A model generated the notes under the pieces. That model made no database searches, was not told where the DNA came from, and saw only the letters and a program-made list of their open reading frames with translations. Source: an uncultured Planctomycetaceae bacterium (GTDB taxonomy: Bacteria > Planctomycetota > Planctomycetia > Pirellulales > PALSA-1355). Taken from it: DNA of 64,000 bases. Made by a program: the position numbers and the translations under genes. Of this stretch, positions 9,399 through 23,476 are shown in pieces. Within the stretch, counting starts at the first letter, position 1; the number at the start of each line of letters is the position of its first letter. The stretch spans positions 25,951 through 89,950 of the forward strand of contig CAWCAX010000004.1 of the NCBI GenBank assembly GCA_963793635.1, given 5' to 3'.

Positions 9399-9604
9399 CG
9401 AAGCGGCCGGCGGCGGATTGCGGTGGGTCCGACTCCTACACCATGCCAGATGTTGCCCCGTCTCGTCAACCGACCCGGCGGTAAGTTCCCGTATTCCGTA
9501 TTCGCTGCCGACCTGCCCGTATTGACGCCAGTCAAAGCGGTTGCTATCGTTCCCGCCCCCCGTACTGCATGCGCTGCGGCGCATGCTCTTGCCAGGAAGG
9601 CCCG

Positions 9605-10883
9605 ATGACGACCGACTTCTGGACCGCTGCCTATCTTGCGCTGGCCGCCCTAGCGGTGCTCTCGTCCGCATTGCTGACGCTTCAGGCTTACGAGTTTCGC
9701 CGGTTCTCGCGCAGCCGCGCGGCCGGCCGCAGCGGTCAGGCCCCCGCCGGGCGCGTGGTGCTCATTTGCCCCTGTCGGGGGCGCGAGATGAACCTGACGA
9801 AAAATCTGCGGGCCCTGTTCGCGCAAGATCATGGAAACTACCGACTGTTGTTCGTCGTCGACCGGTTGCTCGATCCGGCCTGCCGGCCGATCCTGCGATT
9901 GATGCGAGCGCATCCGCGGATCGAGGCCGCCCTGATCGTGGCGGGCACGGCAACCGACAGCGGACAGAAAGTGCATAACCTGCTGGCGGCAACGGCCGAT
10001 TTAGCCGCCGGACGTGCAAATCCTGGCTTTCGTCGATTCCGATGCGCGACCGGCGGCCGATTGGCTGCGACAGCTCGTGCAGCGCCTGGACCAGCCGGGC
10101 GTCGTCGCGGCCACGTCTTATCGCTGGCTGGTGCCGCGCCGCTCGACGCCCGCCAATTTTCTGGTGCATGCGCTCGACGCCAGCGTGGCGCCGCTGATCG
10201 GACCGGGGCGGCACCATCTGGTTTGGGGCGGATCGTGGGCCGTGCGCCGCGATGCCTTCGAGCGAGTCAACCTGCGCGGAGCGTGGCGCGGAACACTGAG
10301 CGACGACCTGGTTGCGGCTCGCGCGTTGCGCTCGCTCGGCAGAGTGCAGTTCGAGCCCGGCGCCATGGTTTCGACGGAAATCGATTTCGACTTCGGCGGC
10401 ATGTTCGAGTTCGTGCGCCGGCAATTTACGATCGGCCGTTTCTACGCGCCGGAGTTTTGGGCACTGGCCACCCTGTTCGGCTGTGCGCAGCAGGGCGTGC
10501 TGTGGATCGGCGCAGCGCTGGTGCCGGTTGCCTGGATGTTCGGCGGCTGGCCGCGTTTGGCAGTGTTGGCCGCCGGATTGCTCTACGGTTTGCAAGTCCT
10601 GCGCGGTTGGCTGCGCGAGGATGCCGCGCGCCATTTTCAGCCCGAAGGTTACCGGCGAACCGCTGCGGCCCGCAGGTTCGCCGTGTGGTTGGGCCCCCTG
10701 GTGGGGTTACTACATTGCTGGGGACTGCTCCGCGCGCTATCGGTTCAATGCATCGAGTGGCGTGGCATTGGCTATGCAATTTACCCGGGCGGCCAGACGC
10801 GGATTGTCCGCCGGCCGGCCACGCCCGAGCAAGTGCCGGCGGGCCACAAGCGGCGCAGATACCGAGCCAAAACCCGTCCGTAG
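9605..10883 (+). CDS. membrane glycosyltransferase, GT2/GT21 (ceramide-glucosyltransferase-like); one frame correction near 10010
   Basis: The N-terminal piece is MTTDFWTAAYLALAALAVL..VVLICPCRG..YRLLFVVD..GQKVHNLL (ORF 9569..). It continues as ILAFVDSDARP..GGSWAVRRDAFERV plus C-terminal TM helices in ORF 10014..10883. Confidence 0.75.
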
Positions 10884-10928
10884 CGCCATGGCGGCGTGGC
10901 CGATTTGACTTCGAAAGGAATTCGACGC

Positions 10929-12413
10929 ATGCACATCGTGCTCTGGGATACTCGGCGGGCCGACGTTACCAAGGATTTTGCCGGCGGCTTTGGCGTGGGC
11001 CAATTTCCGCAGCGGGCCGGGTTGGCGGCCCGGCTGATTCGCCGGGGGTTCACCCGCGACCGGCGGCCGGTGGCCCTGGCCTATGCCTATCTGGCTGCGA
11101 TTTTCCGCGAGCTGGGGCACACCGTCGAGTACGCTCTGGATCGAGTGCCGGCGGCGGCGGACGTCTATATCTTCCATCCCGCGCTGGTCACCTTGCCGAT
11201 GGAGCGACAGGCCATGCGCCGCGCGGTCGATGGGTCGCCCGGTTGCCGGGTGTTTGTCGTCGGACCGGTCGCGCATACCCTCGGCGAGACTTTTGCGGGC
11301 TTGGGCGTCACGGTGCTGCGGGGCGAGTGCGAACAACTGCTCTGGAAATTCGACGCGGTGCTGGCCGATGCCAGCCCAGTGATCGACTTGGGCCGCGTGG
11401 CCGATCTCGACGAGTTGCCACTGCCGGATTGGTCGCTGTTTAGCCCGCGCGGCTTTCGCATTTCCTACGACTTTTGGCGGTTTCCGACCGCACTGGTCCA
11501 AGCCAGCCGGGGTTGCACGCTGTCGTGCAATTATTGTCCCTACATCGTGATCGAAAATTCGGTTCGCGCCCGGCGCCCCGAGCGGGTTGTCGACGAAATC
11601 GTCGAGGGCACCCGGCGTCACGGCTTTCGCTCGTTCAAGTTTCGGGATCCGCTATTCGGCGCGAATCGATCGCCAGCGATGGAACTGGCCGAGCGGCTGG
11701 CCCGCTTGCGGCGGCCGGTGCAGTTTTCGATCGAAAGCCGGATCGATCTGCTGCGCGAGGACACGCTACGAGCGCTGCGCTCCGCGGGGCTGACGAGCGT
11801 GACGTTCGGCATCGAGACTCCCGACGAGGCGACGCTGCGACGCTATCGGCGAGCGCCGATCCGCGACGACCGGCAGCGCGACTTCGTCGAACTGTGTCGG
11901 CGGCTGGGCATCCGCACCGTGGCCGGGTTTATGATCGGGTTCCCCGACGACAGGGAGGAAAACATCGAGTCGGTCCTGCGCTATGCCAAAGCGCTCAACC
12001 CGACGTTCGCGAACTTCAACGTGGTGACACCCTATCCCGGAACGGAATTTTTCGAGCAAAGCCGGCACGACATTGCCGATTTCGATTACAGCAAATACAG
12101 CGTCTATACGCCGGTGCTGAAGTACCGGCATTTGACGCCCGAGCGGGTCGCCGAGCTGCACGCACGCGCGTTCGTGAGCTACTATTTTCGCTCGCGCTGG
12201 CTCGTGGCCAATGCCGCGCAAGTTTGGCCGGGCCTGCAATCGCTGGGTTTTGGCCGGCACTCGACGGAAAGAGCCGCCGCGGTGTCGCCCCGCGGGATAA
12301 TCAGCGCTGCGGGGTCTTCACCCCAAGAGTCTGCCGAGCGCAGCCAAGAGCGGCAAGGCGCCGACCGCAACGGCAAACCAGGTGACGCCGCGCGGCGGCA
12401 GCGCGCGGCGTGA
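10929..12413 (+). CDS. B12-binding-domain radical SAM protein
   Basis: The N-terminal piece is MHIVLWDTR..FAGGFGVG..LAYAYLAAIFRELGH. The radical SAM cluster motif is ASRGCTLSCNYCPY, followed by FRDPLFG. The last ~40 aa overlap a convergent ORF, so the true stop may be earlier. Confidence 0.8.
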   Translation: MHIVLWDTRRADVTKDFAGGFGVGQFPQRAGLAARLIRRGFTRDRRPVALAYAYLAAIFRELGHTVEYALDRVPAAADVYIFHPALVTLPMERQAMRRAVDGSPGCRVFVVGPVAHTLGETFAGLGVTVLRGECEQLLWKFDAVLADASPVIDLGRVADLDELPLPDWSLFSPRGFRISYDFWRFPTALVQASRGCTLSCNYCPYIVIENSVRARRPERVVDEIVEGTRRHGFRSFKFRDPLFGANRSPAMELAERLARLRRPVQFSIESRIDLLREDTLRALRSAGLTSVTFGIETPDEATLRRYRRAPIRDDRQRDFVELCRRLGIRTVAGFMIGFPDDREENIESVLRYAKALNPTFANFNVVTPYPGTEFFEQSRHDIADFDYSKYSVYTPVLKYRHLTPERVAELHARAFVSYYFRSRWLVANAAQVWPGLQSLGFGRHSTERAAAVSPRGIISAAGSSPQESAERSQERQGADRNGKPGDAARRQRAA

Positions 12414-12665
12414 GCGGAGCACGACCGGCGTCAGCAAAAGCACGATCACTCCAATTGTCAGAGCGCTAAAGAACATGAGATCGGTCAGGGCCCGGGCGAC
12501 CTGTCGACCAGGCTGAATCGCCAGCCACCCCCGTGCTCCCATCCAGCCCAGCTCGCTGACCAGAGCGACCAATGCGGAGAGCATCCAGCCAACGGTCGCC
12601 AGTTCGGCGGCCCGGCTTTCCGCAGGCCACTCGGGAAGGTCGGTTTTCGAGTCGTGATTTCTCAA
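12318..12665 (-). CDS. hypothetical membrane protein
   Basis: There are three predicted TM stretches (VGWMLSALVALVSELGW, LMFFSALTIGVIVLLLTPVVL, WFAVAVGALPLLAAL). It lies 34 nt downstream of the Cys-rich gene on the same strand. Confidence 0.4.
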   Translation of the reverse strand: MRNHDSKTDLPEWPAESRAAELATVGWMLSALVALVSELGWMGARGWLAIQPGRQVARALTDLMFFSALTIGVIVLLLTPVVLRSRRALPPRGVTWFAVAVGALPLLAALGRLLG

Positions 12666-12699
12666 GGCGGCCCAGGCGCGATTCCGGCGCGGTCAATTT

Positions 12700-13143
12700 T
12701 CAAGCGTGGATGTAGTGCACCACGATATCGCCGGTGCAGCGGACGATGATCTTGACACTGACCCCGCAACAATAGTCGTATCGCACCACGCCTCGTCCCA
12801 GCGGACCCCAGTGGCTGTTGACTTGGGGCGTGCCGGTGCAACAGCCGGGCAAGCAAACCGGAACATTCACGGTCATGCACGTGCAACCGCAGGGGATCTG
12901 CACTGCCAAGCTGGTTTCGATCGGCGGTTGGCAGCCGCAACACACTTTGCAACCGTGATGCACGTAAGTGATTGTCGGTTGACAACAGGGCCCTGGGGCG
13001 CAGGCCGGATCACAGACGGGCGAGGCACAGTCGGCGCCCAGTACGGCAGCCAACAGGTTCGCCGCCACCGCGGCATCGGCTGAAGCGGCCCCGAGAGCGC
13101 TGACGGCGAACGCCAGAAGCGCGGCGCATAGTTTCGTCGACAT
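12700..13143 (-). CDS. secreted cysteine-rich protein (147 aa, about 18 Cys in the mature part), unknown family
   Basis: Start at MSTKLCAALLAFAVSALGAASA (signal peptide). The mature part has CC/CxC clusters: PCCQP, KVCCGCQ, PCGCTCM, PGCCTG, DYCCG. Confidence 0.6.
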   Translation of the reverse strand: MSTKLCAALLAFAVSALGAASADAAVAANLLAAVLGADCASPVCDPACAPGPCCQPTITYVHHGCKVCCGCQPPIETSLAVQIPCGCTCMTVNVPVCLPGCCTGTPQVNSHWGPLGRGVVRYDYCCGVSVKIIVRCTGDIVVHYIHA

Positions 13144-13581
13144 GGTTGCTCCTTTCAGTAAGAACAAGTGGCGACCAATTTCATGGTCGCTCTTTCGAAC
13201 ACGGCAAAGATCGCATATTTGCTACGACATGCAACCCGCGACTGCGCTACGCGCTTGGGCCGGCTGATCGCAAACTTGGATGCATGCTCGTCTTGCGGTC
13301 GAAACGCGATTTTAACCATTCGCTCCGCGACTACTAGAGTTTCGACCCTGGCCCCCATCCCGTGCAGATCGTGCGCCGCCGGAGTCAAAAAGTTCGATCT
13401 TGGATTTCGATTTGCCAAATTGGTTTAAACGGCCTAGAGTTACGTTGCTACGCCCGACATTCACATCTTTTTGCGGGCGGCCGATCAGCACATTTCAACT
13501 TAGTTCTGCACGCTTTGTTCGACACCCGACGCGCGTGGTGCTCCCCGTAGAGCCGCGTGTCTCAGATTTGCCTCCTCCGAC

Positions 13582-14307
13582 GTGCCTGTTGTGTCCACCA
13601 CCACAGCTCCCGCTGCCGCCGCGCCGATTGCCTGGGGGCCCATCGAGGGTTCGCTAGGGCAGCTGCGCGCGACGCAGGACGCGCTCGCGCAATTCCTGGA
13701 ACAGTTGTTTCAGGACTTGGAACATTCGGAGCGCACCGAAGCGGCCAACGAAGACCATCTGCGCCGCCAGATCGAAGAACTGGCCTCGGATCGGCACAGC
13801 TTGGAACGCGAACTCGACGAGGCGCGGGAAGAAATCACCAAGCTCTCCAGCACCGCGGTCGAGCTGGCCAGCGTGCGCGTCGAGTTGGCCGACGCCCGGG
13901 CCAAAGCCAGCCGGCTCCGCGATCAACTGGTGGCGGCGTCCGGAACCGAGCAGGAACACCGCGCGATGCTGGCGGATTCCGAAATTGAGCGCCGCAGATT
14001 GGAATCGGATCTCGATAGTTTGCGGCGCCGCGCCGCCGAGTTGTCCGAAGACCTGACGACGCATAAACGCCAGGCCGCCCAAGAACGGAGCGCCTGGAAC
14101 GCCGAGCTCAAGCAGTGGCGACTCCTGTTCGAAAAACAGGCGGCCCGGTTCTCGGTCGATCACGCGGCGCCGGCCGCGGCGGGCGGGCGCGCGGGCCACC
14201 CCGCGGGCTCGCTCGACCCGGTGCTTGGCTCGGTCATCGCCCAATTCGAAAGCCTGCATAACGACACGCCCGACCGCGCGGATCAGCCGCCGGCCGGCCC
14301 GCACTGA
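13582..14307 (+). CDS. coiled-coil protein, unknown function
   Basis: A 241-aa ORF with a long Glu/Arg/Leu/Ala heptad-like region (EELASDRHSLERELDEAREEITKL...RRRLESDLDSLRRRAAELSEDL). It is the first gene of a four-gene same-strand cluster. The start codon (GTG) is uncertain. Confidence 0.5.
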   Translation: MPVVSTTTAPAAAAPIAWGPIEGSLGQLRATQDALAQFLEQLFQDLEHSERTEAANEDHLRRQIEELASDRHSLERELDEAREEITKLSSTAVELASVRVELADARAKASRLRDQLVAASGTEQEHRAMLADSEIERRRLESDLDSLRRRAAELSEDLTTHKRQAAQERSAWNAELKQWRLLFEKQAARFSVDHAAPAAAGGRAGHPAGSLDPVLGSVIAQFESLHNDTPDRADQPPAGPH

Positions 14308-14338
14308 TCCCAATGCAAAATCGTTTCCGGAGCAACCC

Positions 14339-15505
14339 ATGCGTGCCAACGCGGATCGCAACTACGGCAATCTGCTGCGCGACGTATTGCGCACGGCTGG
14401 CCAGCGGCTGTGCGGCGGCGTCAACCTGGGATCGCGGCGGCGCAGTACGGGCGGGTCGGAAACGGTCGCGGGCGCTTCGGTCGCCGCGCGTTCATCGCGC
14501 CCGGCCCTGCCGCACAACCCGGCCGTGTTGGTCGAATTGATGCTCTCCCAGGGGCGGTATGCGCTGCTGTTGCGGCCGCAGCTAATCGGCAATCTGAGCC
14601 CGGAACAGCGCGACCGGGCGATCGCCGCTCTGGCGCACCACACGGCGCTCATCAAAACCGGCCCGGTCGTCGTGCTGGGAGTTGCCGGCACCCTGGCCGA
14701 CCTGGAGGGTGCAGCCGCGGCGCCAGCCCCCTCGGCCGCCGAGGCCGTGATTGTCGACAGTTTCCTTCTGGATCGAACGCTCGTCACCAACCGCGAGTTC
14801 CAACAGTTCGTCGCCGCCGGCGGTTACCAGGAGCCGTCAATCTGGGATCCCGAGGTCTGGGCTGTCGTGCCGGAATTCGCCGACCGCAGCGGCGCGCCCG
14901 GACCGCGGTTCTGGTCGCACGGCCGATTCGATCCGCGGCTCGAGCGGCATCCGGTCGTCGGCGTGAGCTGGTACGAAGCGTCGGCCTACGCCCGCTGGTT
15001 GGGAAAGCGTTTGCCGGCCGATGCCGAATGGGTCCGGGCCGCAGCCGCCCCGATGTTGCTTCCAGGCGGCGAATTGCGGCAGCGCAAGTTTCCCTGGGGA
15101 GACAAAGCCGAGCGCGGCCGGGCCAACCTCTGGGGAGCAAACCCCGGCGGAACCGTGGCGGTGGATGAGTTTCCGCAAGGGGACAGCGCGGGCGGGATCA
15201 GCCAGTTGATCGGCAACGTTTGGGAATGGACCGCCGGCCATCTGAACCTGGCGAGTTGGACGCGGGTCTGGCCAGACGGCACGCTGCGATCCACCGCCAT
15301 GAAGTCGCTGCGGGGCGGAGCCTTCGACACCTATTTCGACTCGCAGGCCACCTGCCAGTTCCCGAGCGGCGACCATCCACTGGCCCGCAAACACAACATC
15401 GGCTTCCGCTGTGCGCTGGGGACTTGCGATTTACAAATGCCGGGCGCCGCGCCGGCCGACGAGCCGCAGGGGGAAGAGACGGTTTTGGCGGAGACCGCGT
15501 TATGA
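14339..15505 (+). CDS. FGE/SUMF1-domain (formylglycine-generating-enzyme-like) protein
   Basis: Internal ATG at 14339 (MRANADRNYG). C-terminal motifs: LDRTLVTNREFQQFV, RHPVVGVSWYEASAYARWLGKRLP, GNVWEWT, LRGGAF, IGFRCA. Confidence 0.8.
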   Translation: MRANADRNYGNLLRDVLRTAGQRLCGGVNLGSRRRSTGGSETVAGASVAARSSRPALPHNPAVLVELMLSQGRYALLLRPQLIGNLSPEQRDRAIAALAHHTALIKTGPVVVLGVAGTLADLEGAAAAPAPSAAEAVIVDSFLLDRTLVTNREFQQFVAAGGYQEPSIWDPEVWAVVPEFADRSGAPGPRFWSHGRFDPRLERHPVVGVSWYEASAYARWLGKRLPADAEWVRAAAAPMLLPGGELRQRKFPWGDKAERGRANLWGANPGGTVAVDEFPQGDSAGGISQLIGNVWEWTAGHLNLASWTRVWPDGTLRSTAMKSLRGGAFDTYFDSQATCQFPSGDHPLARKHNIGFRCALGTCDLQMPGAAPADEPQGEETVLAETAL

Positions 15506-16410
15506 GTAAGAACATCGCCATCGAACTCGAATCGTACCGGCTGGCAAAATACGCGACGCAGGTTCCCTGCTACATCTGCGGCGAAGGCAATCTGTTCGAC
15601 AGCGAGCTCTGTCGGTTCTGCTTCGCGCCGATGGCTTTGGCGCAACAGGTCGCCACGCATAAGACTGCTCCGCGGCTATTGGCCACGTTGGGTGCCAGCG
15701 GGGTCGGCAAGACCGTCTATTTGGGCATGCTGCTCGACATGCTGGTCCGGCAGCCGGACCGGTTGCAAATCGTAGCCCGGGGCGCGTTTTCGATCACGCT
15801 GCAGCAGTCGACCGCCACGGCCATGGCGCGCTGCGAGTTTCCCAGCAAGACCCCTAGCGAGCCGGACCGTTGGAATTGGGTGCATTGCCAGGTTCAGCGG
15901 CCGAAGCAAAAACGTCCGGTGGAGTTGATTATGCCTGACCTGGCCGGCGAAGCCTTGTTCGAGGAGCTTGATCACCCGCGCACGTACCGCGTCGTCCAAC
16001 CGCTGTTAAGCCAGGCGGCCGGCGCGCTGGTGCTGGTGGATGCGTTTCGTCTTCAAGACGGCGCGCCGGATCAAGATTACTTCACCCTCAAGCTGCTCAG
16101 CTATCTGAGCGAACTGGACGACAATCCGAAGACGGGCTGGCGCAATCGGCCGTTGGCCATCATTTTCAGCAAGGCCGACGAGGCCGACGAATGCTTCGAC
16201 GACCCGGACCTGTTCGCAAAGCGCCATGCCCCGCGCCTCTGGGAGCACTGCCGGCGATTGTTCCGCGGATATCGTTTCTTTGCCGCCGGCCTGGCCGGCG
16301 TCTGCGCCCAGCGGAGCGTGCGGGGCGAAGCTAAACGCGTGCCGCTGCGGGTCGAGCCCCGCGGCATTATCGAACCGTTCGAGTGGCTATTGTCTCAGAT
16401 CAAGGCCTGA
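15502..16410 (+). CDS. small P-loop GTPase with an N-terminal zinc ribbon
   Basis: The start MSKNIAIE overlaps the upstream stop (ATGA at 15502-15505). Zinc ribbon: CYICGEGNLFDSELCRFC. G1 is GASGVGKT, G3 is MPDLAGE and G4 is IFSKAD. Confidence 0.75.
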   Translation: MSKNIAIELESYRLAKYATQVPCYICGEGNLFDSELCRFCFAPMALAQQVATHKTAPRLLATLGASGVGKTVYLGMLLDMLVRQPDRLQIVARGAFSITLQQSTATAMARCEFPSKTPSEPDRWNWVHCQVQRPKQKRPVELIMPDLAGEALFEELDHPRTYRVVQPLLSQAAGALVLVDAFRLQDGAPDQDYFTLKLLSYLSELDDNPKTGWRNRPLAIIFSKADEADECFDDPDLFAKRHAPRLWEHCRRLFRGYRFFAAGLAGVCAQRSVRGEAKRVPLRVEPRGIIEPFEWLLSQIKA

Positions 16411-16473
16411 TTCCATCGCTTCCGGCAAGCGACCACCGTATCCTGCAAGCCACAACCTGGGAGCCCATTTCGC

Positions 16474-17835
16474 ATGCTCGTCGAACAGGCCATTTTTGGA
16501 TCCGCCCGGACCGGAGACAGGGCGGGATATCACCTCGTTTCGCGCTCGCCCGGACTGGCGCAGTCGGATGCGCGAGAGCTCGCCGAGTGGGGGCCGTCGC
16601 ACGATTCTCTGGTCGACAGCGGACCGCGGGGGCAAAGTTATAATTTCTTCCCCTTGCGCAGCGGCGCGTTCTGCATCTCGAAGACGTCGGCGGCCGGGGC
16701 CGAATTCAGCGGCCGGGGCGGAGCCGAAGTGCGAACGCAGTGTCTTGTCGTTTCGGCTGAGGTTTTTTTCCGCTTCTCGAACAATCCCTTCGCCGTGCTC
16801 CGAGCGGCCGAAGCGACCGGCCGGTTGCGGGCCGGAGACTCGACCGAGACGGGGCCCGGCGGCCGGCCGCCCGAAGCGCTGCGTCTGGTCGGGCGTTCGG
16901 CGGTGGCCGACCATCTGCTGCTCGCCGAATTGGCTCGGGCACCGGGCGCCAAGGCCATGGCCGTGCTGGTCGAGCAAGCACTGGCCGGCCGAAGCCTGGT
17001 CGTGGTCAGCCGCAGCGGAGAAAAATTGATGGCCGGGTTGATCAGTTGCCTGCCGCTCCCCCTGCGCAGCGCAATTTCGTTCTCGACCGGCCTGAAGCTT
17101 TCGCCCTGGCGTCCCTTCCGCATCTCGGCAGCGCCGGCCGATAGCGCCGCTCTGCGGCGAGAAGCCCGCGCGCTGGGCGCCGACGTGCTGGTGCTCGAGT
17201 GGGCCGGCGAGATCCAGTTTTCCAAGGATTCCTGGCCGGCGCGAGTCGAGATTGCCCTGCGAGAATCCAAATTCAGTCAGCTGGCGAATGAAATTCTGCG
17301 ACTCGCCGCTTCCGCGCCGGATGTTGTTCCGGCCGAGGTTCCGACGATCGGCGAAGCGACTCCACCCGACCCGCCCGAGCAGGCGTGGGCCCTATCCCCC
17401 GCCGCGGCAGACGATGGCCAGGCCTCTCGGCAAGCGGCTGGCAGCGCCGGCCATCATCGCGGCCGCTCGGATCAAGCGCATGCGCGATTCGAGCGCAACG
17501 AATCCGCCGGCACCGGCAAGTGCTATGCCGCGGAGCGAGCGCAAACCGGCTTGGGTGAGAATCGCGAGGCGCTGGAGCTTATCGAGCGCTTGGACGACCT
17601 GGTTTTCGACGCGATTGCCGGCAAGCCGACGGCGCTGGCCCGATTGGTGGAGTTTTGGCCGGAAGTGCTCACGCGCCTGGACCCGGCCGTGCTGACGGAA
17701 GCCCGCGAGCAGTATCTGCGCCACGCGCTAGTGATTTGGACCCAATCCGATTCCCAGGGGGTGCAGGACCCGCAGCGAGTCGTCGCTGCGCTCGACGTGC
17801 TGTGCTTGTTGTTTCCGGAAGCGGACTTCGCCTAG
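16474..17835 (+). CDS. hypothetical 453-aa protein; possible GTPase-associated (GAP1-like) partner
   Basis: The ORF is intact. The N-terminus [28 protein letters not shown] resembles (from memory) the N-terminal motif of GTPase-associated protein 1 families. The C-terminal part looks helical. No HMM check was possible. Confidence 0.5.
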   Translation: MLVEQAIFGSARTGDRAGYHLVSRSPGLAQSDARELAEWGPSHDSLVDSGPRGQSYNFFPLRSGAFCISKTSAAGAEFSGRGGAEVRTQCLVVSAEVFFRFSNNPFAVLRAAEATGRLRAGDSTETGPGGRPPEALRLVGRSAVADHLLLAELARAPGAKAMAVLVEQALAGRSLVVVSRSGEKLMAGLISCLPLPLRSAISFSTGLKLSPWRPFRISAAPADSAALRREARALGADVLVLEWAGEIQFSKDSWPARVEIALRESKFSQLANEILRLAASAPDVVPAEVPTIGEATPPDPPEQAWALSPAAADDGQASRQAAGSAGHHRGRSDQAHARFERNESAGTGKCYAAERAQTGLGENREALELIERLDDLVFDAIAGKPTALARLVEFWPEVLTRLDPAVLTEAREQYLRHALVIWTQSDSQGVQDPQRVVAALDVLCLLFPEADFA

Positions 17836-21314: not shown

Positions 21315-21376
21315 CGGTATACCTTTCAGCGTCATCTTTGGACCATCTTTTTCGTTCTCGTGTTATTCGCTTGATG

Positions 21377-23226
21377 CTATGACGTGCGTGAAAAAGTCGC
21401 CAGGTCCTGGGCCAGCGAATCGAGCCGGGCCGACAACTGGCCTTTGACGGCGGCCAGATCGTGAATCTGCTCGGCCGGCTCGTAGGCGAACATGTAGAAC
21501 TTGACCTTGGGTTCCGTGCCCGAGGGGCGAACGGCCACATAGGTGCCTTCGGCCGCCAGATCGATCATCACCATGTCCCCCTTGGGCCCCTGGAAATCGC
21601 GCGGCGGCTGGCCCGGCGTCAGTTCGCGCAGGGCGAGATAATCGCGCACCCGCTTGACCTTCAGTCCGGCCAGTTCTTGCGGCGGATTCTGGCGCAAGCG
21701 CTGCATCAGCGATTCGATCTGGGCCATGCCCTCCGAGCCGGGCATGGTCACCGAGACCTGCCGCTCGGCGTGGCAGCCATATTGCCAGTAGAGCGCGTCG
21801 AGCTTTTGGTGCAGCGTTTGACCGGCGGCTTTTTGTTGGGCGGCCAGTTCGGCCAACAGCATCGCCGCCACGGCGGCGTCCTTGTCGCGGGCGTAGGTGC
21901 CGACCAGATAGCCGTGCGACTCTTCGCAGCCGAAGACGAAATTCTCCGGCCCCAGCTCGTCGATCGTGCCGCCGATGTATTTGAAGCCGACTTGCAGATC
22001 GCCCTCGGTTTTCACGCCGAAAGCATCGGCAATGCGGCGGACCATCTCGGTGGTGACCAGCGTCTTGACCACGTAGTTCCGCGGGCCGAGCTTGCCTGCG
22101 GCCTTGCGCCGCTCGAGCAGATATTCGGCCAGCAGCGCGCCGATCTGGTTGCCGGTCATCGTCAGCCAGGCGCTGCCGGGCTGGGGCGTCAGCGGGGCGG
22201 CCAAGCCGATGCGGTCGCAATCGGGATCGCTGGCCAGCACCAGGTCGGCGCCGGTTTGCTGGGCGCGGCCGATGATCGCGTCGAAGACCTGCGGGTTTTC
22301 GGGATTCGAGACGTGGCCCGGCACGTTCGGAAAATCGCCGTTGGGCTCGGCATGCGGACCGAACAGCTCGACGTCCGTCGAATCCGTCGGCCGCCAGGAC
22401 CGGCAGCACGGCGCTGGCGCCCACGCCGTGCAGCGGCGAATAGATGATCTTCAGATTGCGCGGACCGGGCCAGGCCTGGGCCGCCACGGCCTGGATGTAG
22501 GCCGCGTCGACTTCCTCCTGGCAGAACACGATCTTGCCGCCGGCTCAGTCCCTCGGCAAACGGCAGGCGGTTGATCGTGGTGCAATTCATCACCCGATCG
22601 ATCACGCCCTGATCGTGCGGCGGCAGCAAGTTGCCCGCCGGTCGACCAATAGGCTTTCACCGCGTTGTCGCTGGGCGGATTGTGGCTGGCGGTGACCATG
22701 ATGCCGCAACTGCAGTGCTTGTGGCGCACGGCGAACGAAAGCTCGGGCGTGCTGCGAAATCCGTCGAGGAAATAGACTTTGAAGCCGGCCGCCGCCATGA
22801 TCTCGGCACACAGTTCGGCAAAATGCCGCGACTGGTGCCGCGTGTCGTAGGCGATCGCGCAGGACCAGGGCGCCGTCGGCCGAGCGTTTCCTTGACGTAG
22901 TCGGCCAGTCCCTGCGCACTTTCGCCGATCGTGCGATCGTTGATGGCGTTGGAGCCGATCGGATACATCTTTCCGCGCCGGCCGCCGGTGCCGAAGGGAA
23001 TGACGGTCCAGAAAACGTCGTCCAATTCCTTCCAGCGACCCTGTTCCAAGTGCTCGGCGACCAGCGGCGCATACTCGTGATAGCGCGGTTCGGTCAGCCA
23101 GGCGCGAATATTCGCCACCGCGCCGGGCGAAAGCAGCTTTTGTTCGGCCGCGGTCTTCAATTCCAAGAGGGCCGTGGCTGCATCGAATGCTCCGGCCGGG
23201 CGGCTTGCGTCACGTTCGTCTGCCAT
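21377..23226 (-). CDS. alpha-D-phosphohexomutase (phosphoglucomutase/phosphomannomutase family); at least 3 frame corrections
   Basis: The N-terminal piece FGTGGRRGKMYPIG is in ORF 22657..23334. The active-site piece GIMVTASHNPPSDNAVK is in 22451..22798. The C-terminal 315 aa are in 21377..22324. Confidence 0.8.
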
Positions 23227-23476
23227 AGATGGGTCGTCGATCCGCGGCTTCGGAAGGGACTGTTGATTGCCGGTCATTGTGCCCGATTTTGCCGGCTTGG
23301 GCAAAGGGGCTGCCGGGGTCCCGAAGCGGATCATTCAGCGGGCTCCCAAAATAGTCGAAATCAGCTTTTCAATCGGCCGTCGCGTTCTATACTGCCGCAG
23401 GAACTATACTAAGAGCCTGGCCGAGAACCGCCCCGGCGGTACCTGGATCGGCTAACGAGGAACCGGAGGCAAGGCC

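What the first reader, a model, noticed from the sequence alone, without database searches (positions are those of the whole stretch)
13582..17835. Four-gene cluster: coiled-coil protein, FGE-domain protein, zinc-ribbon small GTPase and a GAP1-like partner (candidate GTPase-centred conflict/sensing system)
Seen in sequence: four same-strand genes with junctions of 31 nt, -4 nt (ATGA at 15502-15505) and 63 nt. All four frames are intact, although the surrounding assembly has many indels. Gene 3 has a CxxC..CxxC ribbon followed by G1 GASGVGKT, G3 DLAGE and G4 SKAD. Gene 2 has FGE/SUMF1 motifs (RHPVVGVSWYEA, GNVWEWT, RGGAF, GFRC) behind a ~170-aa unknown N-terminal region. Gene 4 starts [28 protein letters not shown]. 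Established knowledge, recalled and not checked: comparative-genomic work on NTP-dependent conflict systems describes GTPase-centred systems with 'GTPase-associated protein 1' partners. That work also describes FGE-sulfatase-type domains as ligand-sensing modules. GAP1 N-termini show a Q-x-x-[YF]-[ST] ... G-[FY]-x-x-x-[AS]-x-S-x-G pattern, which gene 4 resembles. Inference: this may be a variant built around a single-domain Zn-ribbon GTPase rather than the described double GTPase, with no obvious effector domain. If so it would be an undescribed architecture. Alternatively it is a lineage-specific housekeeping GTPase module.
Basis: partly seen in the sequence, partly recalled or inferred. Interest (0 to 1): 0.8.

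Follow-up and report, generated by a model that had tools for sequence, protein, structure and literature searches.

The report
Known-type GTPase–GAP1 operon in planctomycete
A planctomycete operon of four genes encodes a small GTP-binding switch, its predicted regulator, a ligand-binding protein and a coiled-coil partner; this type of system was already described computationally in 2020, and here it looks like a stably inherited cellular switch rather than a mobile defence island.

Summary
Four intact same-strand genes lie at 13582-17835, with the stated junctions and motifs. Pfam places gene 3 in DO-GTPase1/2, gene 4 in GAP1-N2 and gene 2 in FGE-sulfatase, all above the curated cut-offs.

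The claim of an undescribed architecture fails. Kaur et al. 2020 state that only 38% of these systems have two GTPase genes and that 60% of the GTPases carry N-terminal zinc ribbons. They also report planctomycete GAP1-N2 systems with FGE-type (FGS) domains. This is a new member of a known, experimentally uncharacterised kind.

What I add:
- The coiled-coil gene 1 is a conserved partner of GAP1 (58 of 61 loci).
- The module is one locus per genome among the 80 listed loci (lower-ranked paralogues not excluded) and syntenic with carA and a glycosyltransferase/radical-SAM pair. Its divergence tracks that of these flanks. It has no phage or plasmid relatives and no PADLOC hit. This argues for vertical inheritance and against a mobile defence island.
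- The FGE domain lacks the catalytic cysteines and is not hypervariable.
- AlphaFold models place GAP1 nearest to longin-DENN GTPase regulators (FLCN, DENND1B, TagF), and the GTPase nearest to Rag/Rab/Arl GTPases.

Most likely this is a GTPase switch regulated by a DENN-like partner. Its physiological role is unknown.

The parts
13168..13581 (+). Intergenic region upstream of g1, shared with the divergently oriented Cys-rich gene; presumed promoter region.
   Evidence: The only sigma-70-like site is at 13412-13440. One site was found against 0.6 expected by chance, so it is not significant. No Rfam family or tRNA lies here.
13582..14307 (+). g1: coiled-coil protein of 241 aa. Its length varies between species. 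It has a conserved C-terminal block (about residues 135-230), ending in DPVLxSVxAQFExL.
   Evidence: Database hits are generic coiled-coil matches only. It aligns with orthologues from three other loci. HMM hits lie directly upstream of GAP1 in 58 of 61 loci, including loci that lack g2 and g3.
14339..15505 (+). g2: FGE-sulfatase (FGS) domain protein of 388 aa. An alternative TTG start at 14225 would give 426 aa.
   Evidence: Pfam PF03781, E 1.1e-40, residues 118-359. It is the gene upstream of the GTPase in 49 of 61 loci.
14519..14698 (+). g2 residues 61-120: conserved N-terminal segment of unknown fold, preceded by a poorly conserved Arg/Ser/Gly-rich leader.
   Evidence: In the conservation profile the major-residue frequency is 0.75 at residues 61-80, against 0.19-0.31 at residues 1-60. 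There is no Pfam hit.
14690..15415 (+). g2 FGE-like (C-type-lectin-like) domain, predicted to be non-catalytic.
   Evidence: Closest solved relatives are the C-terminal domains of OvsA and EgtB, and FGE itself. The two catalytic Cys of human FGE (MCHRSYC) align with T and D. There is no DinB-type N-terminal domain. The core is well conserved (0.7-0.88). No DGR-type repeat exists in the window.
15502..16410 (+). g3: Zn-ribbon GTPase of the DO-GTPase family, 302 aa.
   Evidence: Pfam PF19975 and PF19993, both above cut-off. Orthologues are 60-66% identical and 300-316 aa long. The AF2 model has pLDDT 80.4 and pTM 0.81. Its nearest folds are Asgard RagA-like, Rab32, Rab8, Arl2 and Gtr1.
15568..15621 (+). 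g3 zinc ribbon: a single CxxC-x10-CxxC, residues 23-40.
   Evidence: C23, C26, C37 and C40 are invariant in 51 sequences.
15670..16296 (+). g3 P-loop GTPase core. G1 is G64-T71 (GxSGxGKT). Walker B/G3 is P145-E150 (PDxAGE). G4 is K224-D226 ([ST]KxD).
   Evidence: These positions are invariant or nearly invariant. The Walker B glutamate is the feature Kaur et al. use to define the family.
16342..16386 (+). g3 C-terminal motif PLRxEPRGIxxPFxW (residues 281-295), of unknown role.
   Evidence: P281, L282, R283, E285, P286, G288, P292, F293 and W295 are invariant. In the model the motif follows a beta-hairpin at 268-281.
16474..17835 (+). g4: GAP1-type protein of 453 aa.
   Evidence: Pfam GAP1-N2 at 50.8 bits. 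The family of 420-490 aa proteins comes from Pirellulales/Thermoguttaceae MAGs. The AF2 model has pLDDT 81.6 and pTM 0.74.
16474..16833 (+). g4 N domain (GAP1-N2, residues 1-120), with longin-like order of secondary structure (b-b-a-b-b-b-a-a).
   Evidence: DSSP of the model. Foldseek hits include the Lst4 longin domain, FLCN and DENND1B. GAP1-N2 is hit in 65 of 65 family members. Conserved residues include Q5, R15/16, G18, Y19, W39, P41, S42, H43, D44 and R81.
16912..17313 (+). g4 M domain (residues 147-280), an alpha/beta sandwich that is DENN-core-like in fold searches.
   Evidence: Pfam GAP1-M scores only 11.9 bits in this protein, but 52 of 65 family members hit it at E<=1 (best 1.5e-5). 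The Foldseek alignments to TagF (354 columns) and DENND1B (319 columns) span both N and M. P194, R198 and R213 are invariant.
17329..17541 (+). g4 disordered, poorly conserved linker (residues 286-356).
   Evidence: pLDDT is below 50 for residues 286-356. Conservation is 0.14-0.42.
17551..17823 (+). g4 C domain (residues 360-450), a four-helix module.
   Evidence: Helices 364-381, 387-401, 404-427 and 433-446, with pLDDT about 90. W395, R411 and E412 are invariant. No Pfam family was matched here in any of the 65 members.

Best explanation
The locus is a member of the GAP1-N2-type 'DO-GTPase' systems, in the planctomycete subtype that carries an FGE-sulfatase (FGS) domain protein. My proposed mechanism has four parts.

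1. The Zn-ribbon GTPase (g3) is an active guanine-nucleotide switch.
2. GAP1 (g4) binds it through a longin-plus-DENN-like module. It sets the nucleotide state, acting either as an exchange factor or as a GTPase activator. Its helical C domain, on a long flexible linker, recruits a partner.
3. The non-catalytic FGE-fold protein (g2) is made in fixed proportion to the GTPase through translational coupling. It supplies ligand or target binding.
4. The coiled-coil protein (g1) is a scaffold or localisation partner of GAP1.

Shown here: family membership, intact GTPase motifs, loss of the FGE catalytic residues, operon conservation and vertical, syntenic inheritance. Inferred: all protein-protein contacts, the direction of regulation (GEF or GAP), and the physiological role. 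I judge the role more likely to be a lineage-specific cellular switch (for example envelope, polarity or stress signalling in a clade of Pirellulales) than an anti-invader system.
For: Family membership: Pfam hits are above the gathering cut-offs for g2, g3 and g4. GAP1-N2 is found in 65 of 65 relatives and GAP1-M in 52 of 65.

Active switch: the zinc-ribbon cysteines, G1, PDxAGE and [ST]KxD are invariant in 51 sequences.

Regulator fold: the GAP1 model is confident. Its top structural neighbours are FLCN (E 7.7e-4), TagF (TM 0.43), the DENND1B-Rab35 GEF (E 2.3e-3), DENND10, the Lst4 longin domain and GATOR1 subunits. The GTPase model is nearest to Rag-, Rab- and Arl-type GTPases, the client classes of such regulators.

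Binding role of g2: the FGE catalytic cysteines are replaced and there is no DinB domain.

Coupling: the g2/g3 4-nt overlap is kept in 56 of 67 loci.

Operon conservation: 49 of 61 loci have the full four genes, and g1 is next to GAP1 in 58 of 61.

Vertical, housekeeping-like behaviour:
- 242 species representatives carry a relative, with one locus per MAG among the 80 listed.
- carA lies downstream, or a GT21/radical-SAM pair upstream, in about 20 loci each, down to 33-37% GAP1 identity.
- Pairwise divergence of g3 and g4 correlates with that of the flanks (rho 0.43-0.77).
- The GTPase is as conserved as the neighbouring radical-SAM enzyme (0.60 against 0.62).
- There is no PADLOC hit, no viral relative and no plasmid relative.
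- No toxin-type domain and no paralogue occur in the window.
Against: No member of this family has been studied experimentally, so every functional step is inferred.

The DENN/longin similarity is fold-level only. E-values are marginal (about 1e-3) and TM-scores low (0.2-0.43). There is no sequence-level support: a profile search against the PDB found nothing.

Kaur et al. class the whole family as conflict systems, and I cannot exclude that.

GAP1 evolves clearly faster (about 40% identity) than the GTPase (about 60%).

About 20% of loci lack g2 and g3 next to GAP1. That is awkward for a dedicated regulator-client pair.

The locus set was chosen by GAP1 similarity. I could not measure what fraction of Pirellulales genomes lack the system, so patchiness is untested.

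The FNIII component typical of GAP1-N2 systems is absent. No membrane segment is present, unlike most described systems.
Confidence: 0.55

Rival explanations
1. It is an NTP-dependent biological conflict (immune) system, as proposed for all DO-GTPase/GAP1 systems. GAP1 and the GTPase form the regulated switch that senses an invader. The FGS-domain protein is a 'neutralising' effector that binds an invader molecule.
For: This is the published prediction for the family, including the planctomycete FGS subtype. FGS domains serve as target-binding modules in DGR and vWA-MoxR systems. GAP1 diverges faster than its neighbours (about 40% against 60-75%). Partial loss of genes in about 20% of loci resembles the turnover of accessory systems.
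Against: No PADLOC model matches. There are no relatives on phage or plasmid records. The chromosomal position next to carA and the GT21/radical-SAM pair is kept across deep divergence, and divergence tracks the flanks. The composition is constant rather than variable between relatives. The FGS core is conserved and no DGR repeat is present. No toxic or enzymatic effector is present. The prediction itself has never been tested.
Confidence: 0.25
2. It is an enzyme-maturation or biosynthetic module. The FGE/EgtB-like protein would be an oxidase (formylglycine or sulfoxide synthase type), and the Zn-ribbon GTPase a metallochaperone-like maturation factor.
For: g2 scores best against the EgtB, SenA and OvoA models and the OvsA/EgtB structures. 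g2 and g3 are translationally coupled. GTPases next to metalloenzymes are often insertases (established knowledge of the G3E family).
Against: All NCBIfam scores are far below the cut-offs (112 bits against 360 for EgtB). The DinB-type iron-binding domain is absent. The FGE copper-binding cysteines are replaced. The stretch that holds the EgtB catalytic Tyr appears to be deleted; that rests on my reading and my memory of the residue position. The GTPase belongs to the TRAFAC DO-GTPase family, not the G3E/SIMIBI metallochaperones. This reading does not explain GAP1 or g1.
Confidence: 0.07
3. The four genes are adjacent by chance, or are decaying remnants with no joint function.
For: The assembly is error-prone (frameshifted neighbours). 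Some related loci show deletions, for example L057.
Against: The order and strand are kept in 49 of 61 loci across 33-60% protein identity. The start-stop overlap is conserved and functional motifs are invariant.
Confidence: 0.02

Closest known systems
GAP1-N2-type GTPase-centric ('DO-GTPase') systems, planctomycete subtype with FGS domains (Kaur, Burroughs, Iyer & Aravind, eLife 2020; Pfam PF19975/PF19993/PF20013/PF20014)
   Same: A TRAFAC GTPase has a Walker B glutamate and an N-terminal zinc ribbon. The GAP1 gene lies immediately downstream. GAP1 has three globular modules. The host is a planctomycete. An FGE-sulfatase (FGS) protein is encoded in the operon.
   Different: There is one zinc ribbon rather than the 'usual' two. 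No FNIII-repeat protein and no transmembrane component are present. No variable effector array is present. A conserved coiled-coil partner (g1) is not mentioned in the paper's text. The C domain does not match any Pfam model. The inheritance pattern is vertical and syntenic, not the variable pattern the paper uses to argue for conflict.
Eukaryotic longin-DENN GTPase regulators and their clients (DENND1B-Rab35 GEF; FLCN-FNIP2-RagC GAP; GATOR1; C9orf72-SMCR8)
   Same: The predicted GAP1 fold has a longin-order N domain followed by an alpha/beta domain and then a helical domain. It is encoded next to a small GTPase whose predicted fold is nearest to Rag, Rab and Arl GTPases. This suggests it works like a GEF or GAP platform.
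   Different: No sequence similarity is detectable. The Foldseek scores are marginal. The GP motif of GAP-type longins is not present; the hairpin here reads RxxGY. A disordered linker of about 70 aa precedes the helical domain. The GTPase carries a zinc ribbon and a Walker B glutamate. Homology as opposed to convergence is untested. Zhang et al. 2012 regard DENN and d-DENN as eukaryote-specific.
MglA-MglB (Ras-like GTPase with Roadblock-domain GAP) polarity module of Myxococcus
   Same: It is a bacterial small GTPase whose cognate regulator has a Roadblock/longin-type fold and is encoded alongside it. It functions as a cellular switch, not an immune one.
   Different: MglB is a single Roadblock domain, whereas GAP1 has three modules. 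The GTPase families differ. There is no FGE-domain protein or obligate coiled-coil partner in the mglBA operon. No Pfam hit to MglA- or Roadblock-type families was found.
T6SS accessory protein TagF (PDB 9t0n, 6iz8)
   Same: It is the best bacterial structural neighbour of the GAP1 model (TM 0.43 over 354 aligned columns).
   Different: TagF belongs to type VI secretion loci and has no known GTPase partner. There is no sequence similarity, and no T6SS genes occur in the window.
Formylglycine-generating enzyme and the EgtB/OvsA sulfoxide/selenoxide synthases
   Same: g2 residues 118-359 have the FGE-sulfatase fold at the sequence level (E 1e-40 in Pfam; 1e-17 to 1e-23 against solved structures).
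   Different: The catalytic Cys pair is replaced by T and D. There is no DinB domain. Scores are far below the NCBIfam equivalog cut-offs. g2 is therefore a binding-type 'FGS' domain, not one of these enzymes.

Membership tests
GAP1-N2-type DO-GTPase system (Kaur et al. 2020) | GTPase of the DO-GTPase family (TRAFAC clade) with a conserved glutamate in the Walker B motif | tested here: met
   PF19975 scores 57.3 bits and PF19993 scores 43.5 bits, against a cut-off of 27. PDxAGE has D146, G149 and E150 conserved in at least 90% of 51 sequences.
GAP1-N2-type DO-GTPase system (Kaur et al. 2020) | GAP1 protein encoded immediately downstream of the GTPase, with a GAP1-N2 N-terminal domain | tested here: met
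   g4 starts 63 nt after g3. PF20013 scores 50.8 bits against a cut-off of 24, and is hit in 65 of 65 relatives.
GAP1-N2-type DO-GTPase system (Kaur et al. 2020) | GAP1 built of three globular domains (N, M, C) | tested here: inconclusive
   The AF2 model shows three globular modules. GAP1-M is below the cut-off in this protein (11.9 bits) but is hit by 52 of 65 relatives. The C module matches no Pfam family in any member.
GAP1-N2-type DO-GTPase system (Kaur et al. 2020) | N-terminal zinc ribbon(s) on the GTPase (usually two in N2 systems) | tested here: met
   There is one ribbon, CxxC-x10-CxxC, and all four Cys are invariant. One rather than two lies within the published range of '1-2'.
GAP1-N2-type DO-GTPase system (Kaur et al. 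2020) | Two paralogous GTPase genes ('double') | tested here: not met
   There is a single GTPase gene in the window and in all related loci. This is not required for membership, since only 38% of the described systems have two.
GAP1-N2-type DO-GTPase system (Kaur et al. 2020) | Companion protein with rapidly evolving FNIII repeats | tested here: not met
   There is no FN3 hit in g1-g4 or in the called neighbours of five related loci. The paper describes the planctomycete FGS and GYF subtypes separately from the FNIII themes.
GAP1-N2-type DO-GTPase system (Kaur et al. 2020) | Planctomycete subtype: FGS (FGE-sulfatase) domain protein in the neighbourhood | tested here: met
   g2 matches PF03781 at E 1.1e-40. 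It is conserved upstream of the GTPase in 49 of 61 loci.
GAP1-N2-type DO-GTPase system (Kaur et al. 2020) | Variable effector components that differ between closely related organisms (the hallmark used to infer conflict) | tested here: not met
   The same four genes occur across 33-60% protein identity. The FGS core is conserved at 0.7-0.88. No DGR repeat is present.
Anti-phage defence systems (PADLOC catalogue; defence-island behaviour) | Match to a known defence protein model, or location on or next to mobile elements or defence genes | tested here: not met
   PADLOC gives only coiled-coil noise for g1 and nothing for g2 or g4. The flanks are carA, a methyltransferase, a glycosyltransferase, a radical-SAM enzyme and a redoxin. 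There are no viral or plasmid relatives.
Longin-DENN module (eukaryotic Rab/Rag/Arf regulators) | Tripartite fold: longin domain, alpha/beta DENN core and helical d-DENN | tested here: inconclusive
   The predicted secondary-structure order and the Foldseek top hits (FLCN, DENND1B, DENND10, Lst4, TagF; E 8e-4 to 2e-2, probability 0.93-1.0, except FLCN chain 8dhb_J at 0.77) agree for N+M. TM-scores are low (0.2-0.43). The model is only a prediction. Domain-wise comparison was not possible.
Longin-DENN module (eukaryotic Rab/Rag/Arf regulators) | Detectable sequence homology to the DENN, uDENN or folliculin families | tested here: not met
   No such Pfam hit occurs at E<=1 in any of the 65 members. 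The profile search against PDB sequences found nothing relevant.
Longin-DENN module (eukaryotic Rab/Rag/Arf regulators) | Direct binding to a small GTPase, with GEF or GAP activity towards it | not testable with these tools
   This needs biochemistry or complex prediction. Only gene adjacency and co-conservation are shown.
Formylglycine-generating enzyme / EgtB-type sulfoxide synthase | Catalytic residues: the FGE Cys pair, or the DinB-domain iron triad plus a catalytic Tyr | tested here: not met
   The Cys pair aligns to T and D. There is no DinB domain. NCBIfam scores are far below the cut-offs.

The most novel reading that the evidence does not exclude
GAP1 proteins would be true bacterial longin-DENN-type regulators, paired with a Rag/Rab-like Zn-ribbon GTPase. 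The planctomycete four-gene version (coiled-coil partner, FGE-fold binder, GTPase, GAP1) would be a vertically inherited cell-biological switch, for example for envelope, polarity or membrane organisation in Pirellulales, and not an immune system. That would give a prokaryotic counterpart of the DENN-GTPase pairing now regarded as a eukaryotic invention. It would also call for re-reading the 'conflict system' label of the whole DO-GTPase/GAP1 family.
Probability: 0.3. Interest if true: 0.75.

Novelty: new member of a known kind. Interest (0 to 1): 0.42.

Why it matters
As a locus, it is another example of a system catalogued in 2020 and already covered by Pfam models, so the architecture is not news. 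It matters for two reasons.

First, the DO-GTPase/GAP1 family has no experimental characterisation at all. Only one paper in the searchable literature mentions it. This planctomycete subfamily is a clean, minimal, soluble four-protein version. That makes it suitable for biochemistry.

Second, two of my results cut against the accepted label. The subfamily behaves like a vertically inherited chromosomal module rather than a variable conflict system. Its 'GAP1' partner is predicted to fold like the longin-DENN regulators of eukaryotic Rab/Rag GTPases. If confirmed, this bears on where the eukaryotic GTPase-regulator toolkit came from and on the cell biology of planctomycetes.

Tried and rejected
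1. Exact-sequence look-ups of the window's own g3 and g4 products found nothing on record. The source contig could not be fetched, so I identified the organism only through relatives: Pirellulales/Thermoguttaceae-type MAGs, the closest being OY970273.1.

2. The supplement of Kaur et al. held as text contains no GAP1 or planctomycete entries. I could not check whether their planctomycete examples include the g1 coiled-coil gene.

3. Sequence searches of g3, g4 and their family profiles against PDB chains gave nothing significant. No solved relative exists, and the DENN link has no sequence support.

4. I first thought the conserved Arg in the GAP1-N b1-b2 hairpin matched the arginine finger of FLCN-type GAP longins. 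Re-reading the source shows that the GP motif sits in that hairpin and the Arg finger is elsewhere in the sequence. GAP1 has RxxGY, not GP. I therefore do not use this to choose between GEF and GAP.

5. The promoter/terminator scan gave nothing above chance. Rfam and tRNA scans of the window were empty.

6. I rejected a DGR-diversified FGS domain. There are no template or variable repeats, no reverse transcriptase nearby, and the core is conserved.

7. I rejected an enzymatic FGE/EgtB role for g2.

8. A literature search for a published TagF-DENN or bacterial DENN link returned nothing usable.

9. The initial tblastn census under-detected g1: 53 of 84 loci. HMM searches corrected this to 58 of 61 informative loci.

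Full report
**Observation**

The window is about 64% G+C. It carries four + strand ORFs at the reported place:
- g1, 13582-14307, 241 aa;
- g2, 14339-15505, 388 aa (426 aa if a TTG at 14225 is the start);
- g3, 15502-16410, 302 aa;
- g4, 16474-17835, 453 aa.

The junctions are 31 nt, a 4-nt overlap and 63 nt. I read the ATGA at 15502-15505 directly. Neighbouring genes are frameshifted (a glycosyltransferase at 9569-11443 and a phosphoglucomutase at 21377-23334). The remark about a noisy assembly is therefore fair.

**Family assignment**

- g3 matches DO-GTPase1 (57.3 bits) and DO-GTPase2 (43.5 bits), both against a cut-off of 27.
- g4 matches GAP1-N2 (50.8 bits, cut-off 24), and GAP1-M only weakly (11.9 bits).
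- g2 matches FGE-sulfatase (E 1.1e-40, residues 118-359).
- g1 gives only generic coiled-coil matches.
- PADLOC has no real match.

**What is already known**

The only paper in the searchable literature that mentions these families is Kaur, Burroughs, Iyer and Aravind, eLife 2020. It says the following:
- The GTPases occur as two paralogous copies in only 38% of systems. That is the origin of the name 'double-GTPase'.
- 60% of the GTPases have one or two N-terminal zinc ribbons.
- GAP1 is encoded downstream of the GTPase and has N, M and C domains.
- GAP1-N2 systems occur in actinobacteria, firmicutes, planctomycetes, verrucomicrobia and chloroflexi.
[quoted passage not shown]'

A single Zn-ribbon GTPase with GAP1-N2 and an FGE-type protein in a planctomycete is therefore a described architecture. 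Homologues are already named 'GAP1-N2 domain-containing protein' and 'TRAFAC clade GTPase domain-containing protein' in NCBI records.

**Relatives and context**

g4 belongs to a family of 420-490 aa proteins from Pirellulales/Thermoguttaceae-type MAGs, at about 40% identity. g3 orthologues are much more conserved, at 60-66% identity, and always 300-316 aa long. An exhaustive phmmer search of 1.84 billion cluster representatives found only 292 matches at E<=1e-3 and 77 at E<=1e-30. This is a compact subfamily.

A scan of one genome per GTDB species found 242 species with a relative. The 80 loci fetched are all uncultured Planctomycetia/Pirellulales/Thermoguttaceae, one locus per MAG.

HMM searches of six-frame translations covered 61 loci with at least 3.8 kb upstream of GAP1:
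- 49 have the full order g1-g2-g3-g4;
- 8 keep only a short g1-like ORF directly upstream of GAP1;
- 3 have GAP1 alone;
- 1 (L057) has g1, a 69-aa remnant of g3, and GAP1.

g1 is thus the most faithful neighbour of GAP1 (58 of 61). Its conserved part is a C-terminal block ending DPVLxSVxAQFExL. The g2-stop/g3-start overlap (ATGA, GTGA or TTGA) is kept in 56 of 67 loci. This indicates translational coupling of the FGE-domain protein and the GTPase.

**Inheritance pattern**

The flanks of the window locus are ordinary genes:
- a thioredoxin-like protein;
- an HpnI-like family-21 glycosyltransferase;
- a BchE/HpnJ-like radical-SAM enzyme;
- a small membrane protein;
- a Cys-rich secreted protein;
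- on the other side, carA (TIGR01368, 488 bits), a methyltransferase and a 3-keto-disaccharide hydrolase.

The same flanks recur in related loci. GT21 and radical SAM each appear in 20 loci, carA in 19, the methyltransferase in 14 and the Cys-rich gene in 17. carA is still downstream at 33% GAP1 identity (L085). GT21-rSAM-...-g1-GAP1-TPR-carA is seen at 37% identity (L086).

Pairwise divergence of g3 and g4 correlates with that of carA and the radical-SAM gene (Spearman 0.43-0.77). The GTPase is as conserved as the radical-SAM enzyme (0.60 against 0.62 mean identity).

There are no relatives in IMG/VR viral contigs or PLSDB plasmids. There is no paralogue in the window, no DGR-type repeat, and no RNA gene.

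This is the signature of a vertically inherited chromosomal module, not of a mobile or rapidly shuffled defence island.

Two caveats apply. The loci were selected through GAP1. I also could not count the Pirellulales genomes that lack the system. Patchiness at the level of the order is therefore untested.

**The proteins**

GTPase (g3), from an alignment of 51 orthologues:
- Invariant C23, C26, C37 and C40 form a single zinc ribbon.
- G1 is GxSGxGKT (G64-T71).
- Walker B/G3 is PDxAGE (P145-E150), with the family-defining glutamate.
- G4 is [ST]KxD (K224, D226).
- An invariant C-terminal motif reads PLRxEPRGIxxPFxW.

The switch is therefore not degenerate. The AF2 model (pLDDT 80.4, pTM 0.81) is nearest to an Asgard RagA-like GTPase, Rab32, Rab8, Arl2, Cdc42 and Gtr1 (E 9e-6 to 4e-3). 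No solved structure is related by sequence.

FGE-domain protein (g2). Its domain is closest to the C-terminal domains of OvsA and EgtB, and to FGE. The two catalytic cysteines of human FGE align with T and D. There is no DinB-type domain. NCBIfam scores are far below the equivalog cut-offs. The domain core is well conserved among orthologues (0.7-0.88). It is most likely a non-catalytic binding module, as in the 'FGS' usage of Kaur et al.. Residues 61-120 form a second conserved segment of unknown fold.

None of the four proteins has a membrane-grade hydrophobic segment. This differs from most described GAP1-N2 systems.

**GAP1 fold**

The AF2 model of g4 (65-sequence alignment, pLDDT 81.6, pTM 0.74) has four parts:
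- an N domain with strand/helix order b-b-a-b-b-b-a-a (residues 1-120);
- an alpha/beta M domain (147-280);
- a disordered, unconserved linker (286-356);
- a four-helix C domain (360-450).

The best Foldseek matches in the PDB are folliculin (E 7.7e-4), TagF of Acinetobacter (E 1.1e-3, TM 0.43 over 354 columns), the DENND1B GEF bound to Rab35 (E 2.3e-3), FNIP2, DENND10, the Lst4 longin domain and GATOR1 subunits. These are longin or longin-DENN GTPase regulators, plus the T6SS protein TagF, whose relation to them I could not verify.

Kaur et al. never mention longin, DENN or Roadblock. Zhang et al. 2012 treat DENN and d-DENN as confined to the eukaryotic module, and trace only the longin domain to prokaryotic MglB-like proteins. 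I found no paper making this link.

The evidence is fold-level only. E-values are marginal and TM-scores low, partly because of domain orientation. No Pfam or PDB sequence signal exists. GAP-type longins carry a GP motif before strand 2. GAP1 has a conserved RxxGY there instead. I cannot say whether it would act as an exchange factor or as an activator.

**Mechanism**

Best-supported model (confidence 0.55). g3 is a guanine-nucleotide switch. g4 binds and regulates it through a longin/DENN-like platform and recruits something through its tethered helical domain. g2, co-translated with g3, contributes ligand or target recognition. g1 is a coiled-coil scaffold tied to GAP1. The role is more likely a lineage-specific cellular switch than immunity.

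Rivals:
- the published conflict-system reading (0.25);
- an enzyme-maturation module (0.07);
- a chance or decaying cluster (0.02).

Unexplained: about 20% of species keep GAP1, usually with g1, at the site without g2-g3.

**Verdict**

- Novelty: a new member of a known, computationally defined kind.
- The interesting residue is the predicted DENN-like nature of GAP1 and the housekeeping-like evolutionary behaviour of this subfamily. Both need structural, biochemical and phylogenomic confirmation.

Noticed in passing
window 9569-12413 (+): A family-21 glycosyltransferase (HpnI-like, frameshifted in this assembly) is followed by a BchE/HpnJ-like radical-SAM enzyme. Both score well below the NCBIfam cut-offs. 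The pair recurs upstream of the GTPase operon in 20 related loci. It may be a conserved lipid or hopanoid-type modification pair of unknown product.
   Followed up: partly
window 12318-13167 (-): A Cys-rich protein of 155 aa with a signal-peptide-like N-terminus (12700-13167) and a small membrane protein of 115 aa (12318-12665) are transcribed divergently from g1. They are conserved at this position in 17 and 13 related loci. Neither has a Pfam or NCBIfam match. Whether they are functionally linked to the operon or merely syntenic is unknown.
   Followed up: partly
window 9569-11443 and 21363-23334: The glycosyltransferase and phosphoglucomutase genes are split over frames. The closest relatives come from long-contig MAG assemblies, and L004 has its FGE gene split in the same way. 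This looks like indel errors of a long-read metagenome assembly rather than pseudogenes.
   Followed up: no
L086 7193-9272; L043 9343-11320; L030 4828-6892; also L067, L079, L081, L083, L084: These are reduced loci. A short g1-like coiled-coil ORF lies directly upstream of GAP1, and the FGE and GTPase genes are absent from the site. In L086 the usual flanks are still present (GT21, radical SAM, carA).
   Followed up: partly
L057 8949-11338: g1 is followed by a 69-aa C-terminal fragment of the GTPase and then GAP1. This is an apparent internal deletion of g2 and most of g3, or an assembly artefact.
   Followed up: no
L016 (JABMRB010000441.1) and protein P0039: Contigs carrying this planctomycete-type operon are labelled 'Candidatus Nealsonbacteria' and 'Patescibacteria group bacterium'. 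They are probably mis-binned contigs rather than real occurrences in Patescibacteria.
   Followed up: no
locus of P0110 (JGI 3300056388, no DNA held): A second, shorter FGE-sulfatase gene (326 aa) and a large cadherin/Big_9 repeat protein lie just upstream of the four-gene cluster. This is the only hint of extra, variable components seen in any neighbourhood.
   Followed up: no
window 16342-16386 (g3 residues 281-295): The motif PLRxEPRGIxxPFxW at the C-terminus of the GTPase is invariant. It lies outside the canonical G motifs. It is a candidate interface or arginine-supplying element that is not discussed in the literature I could read.
   Followed up: no
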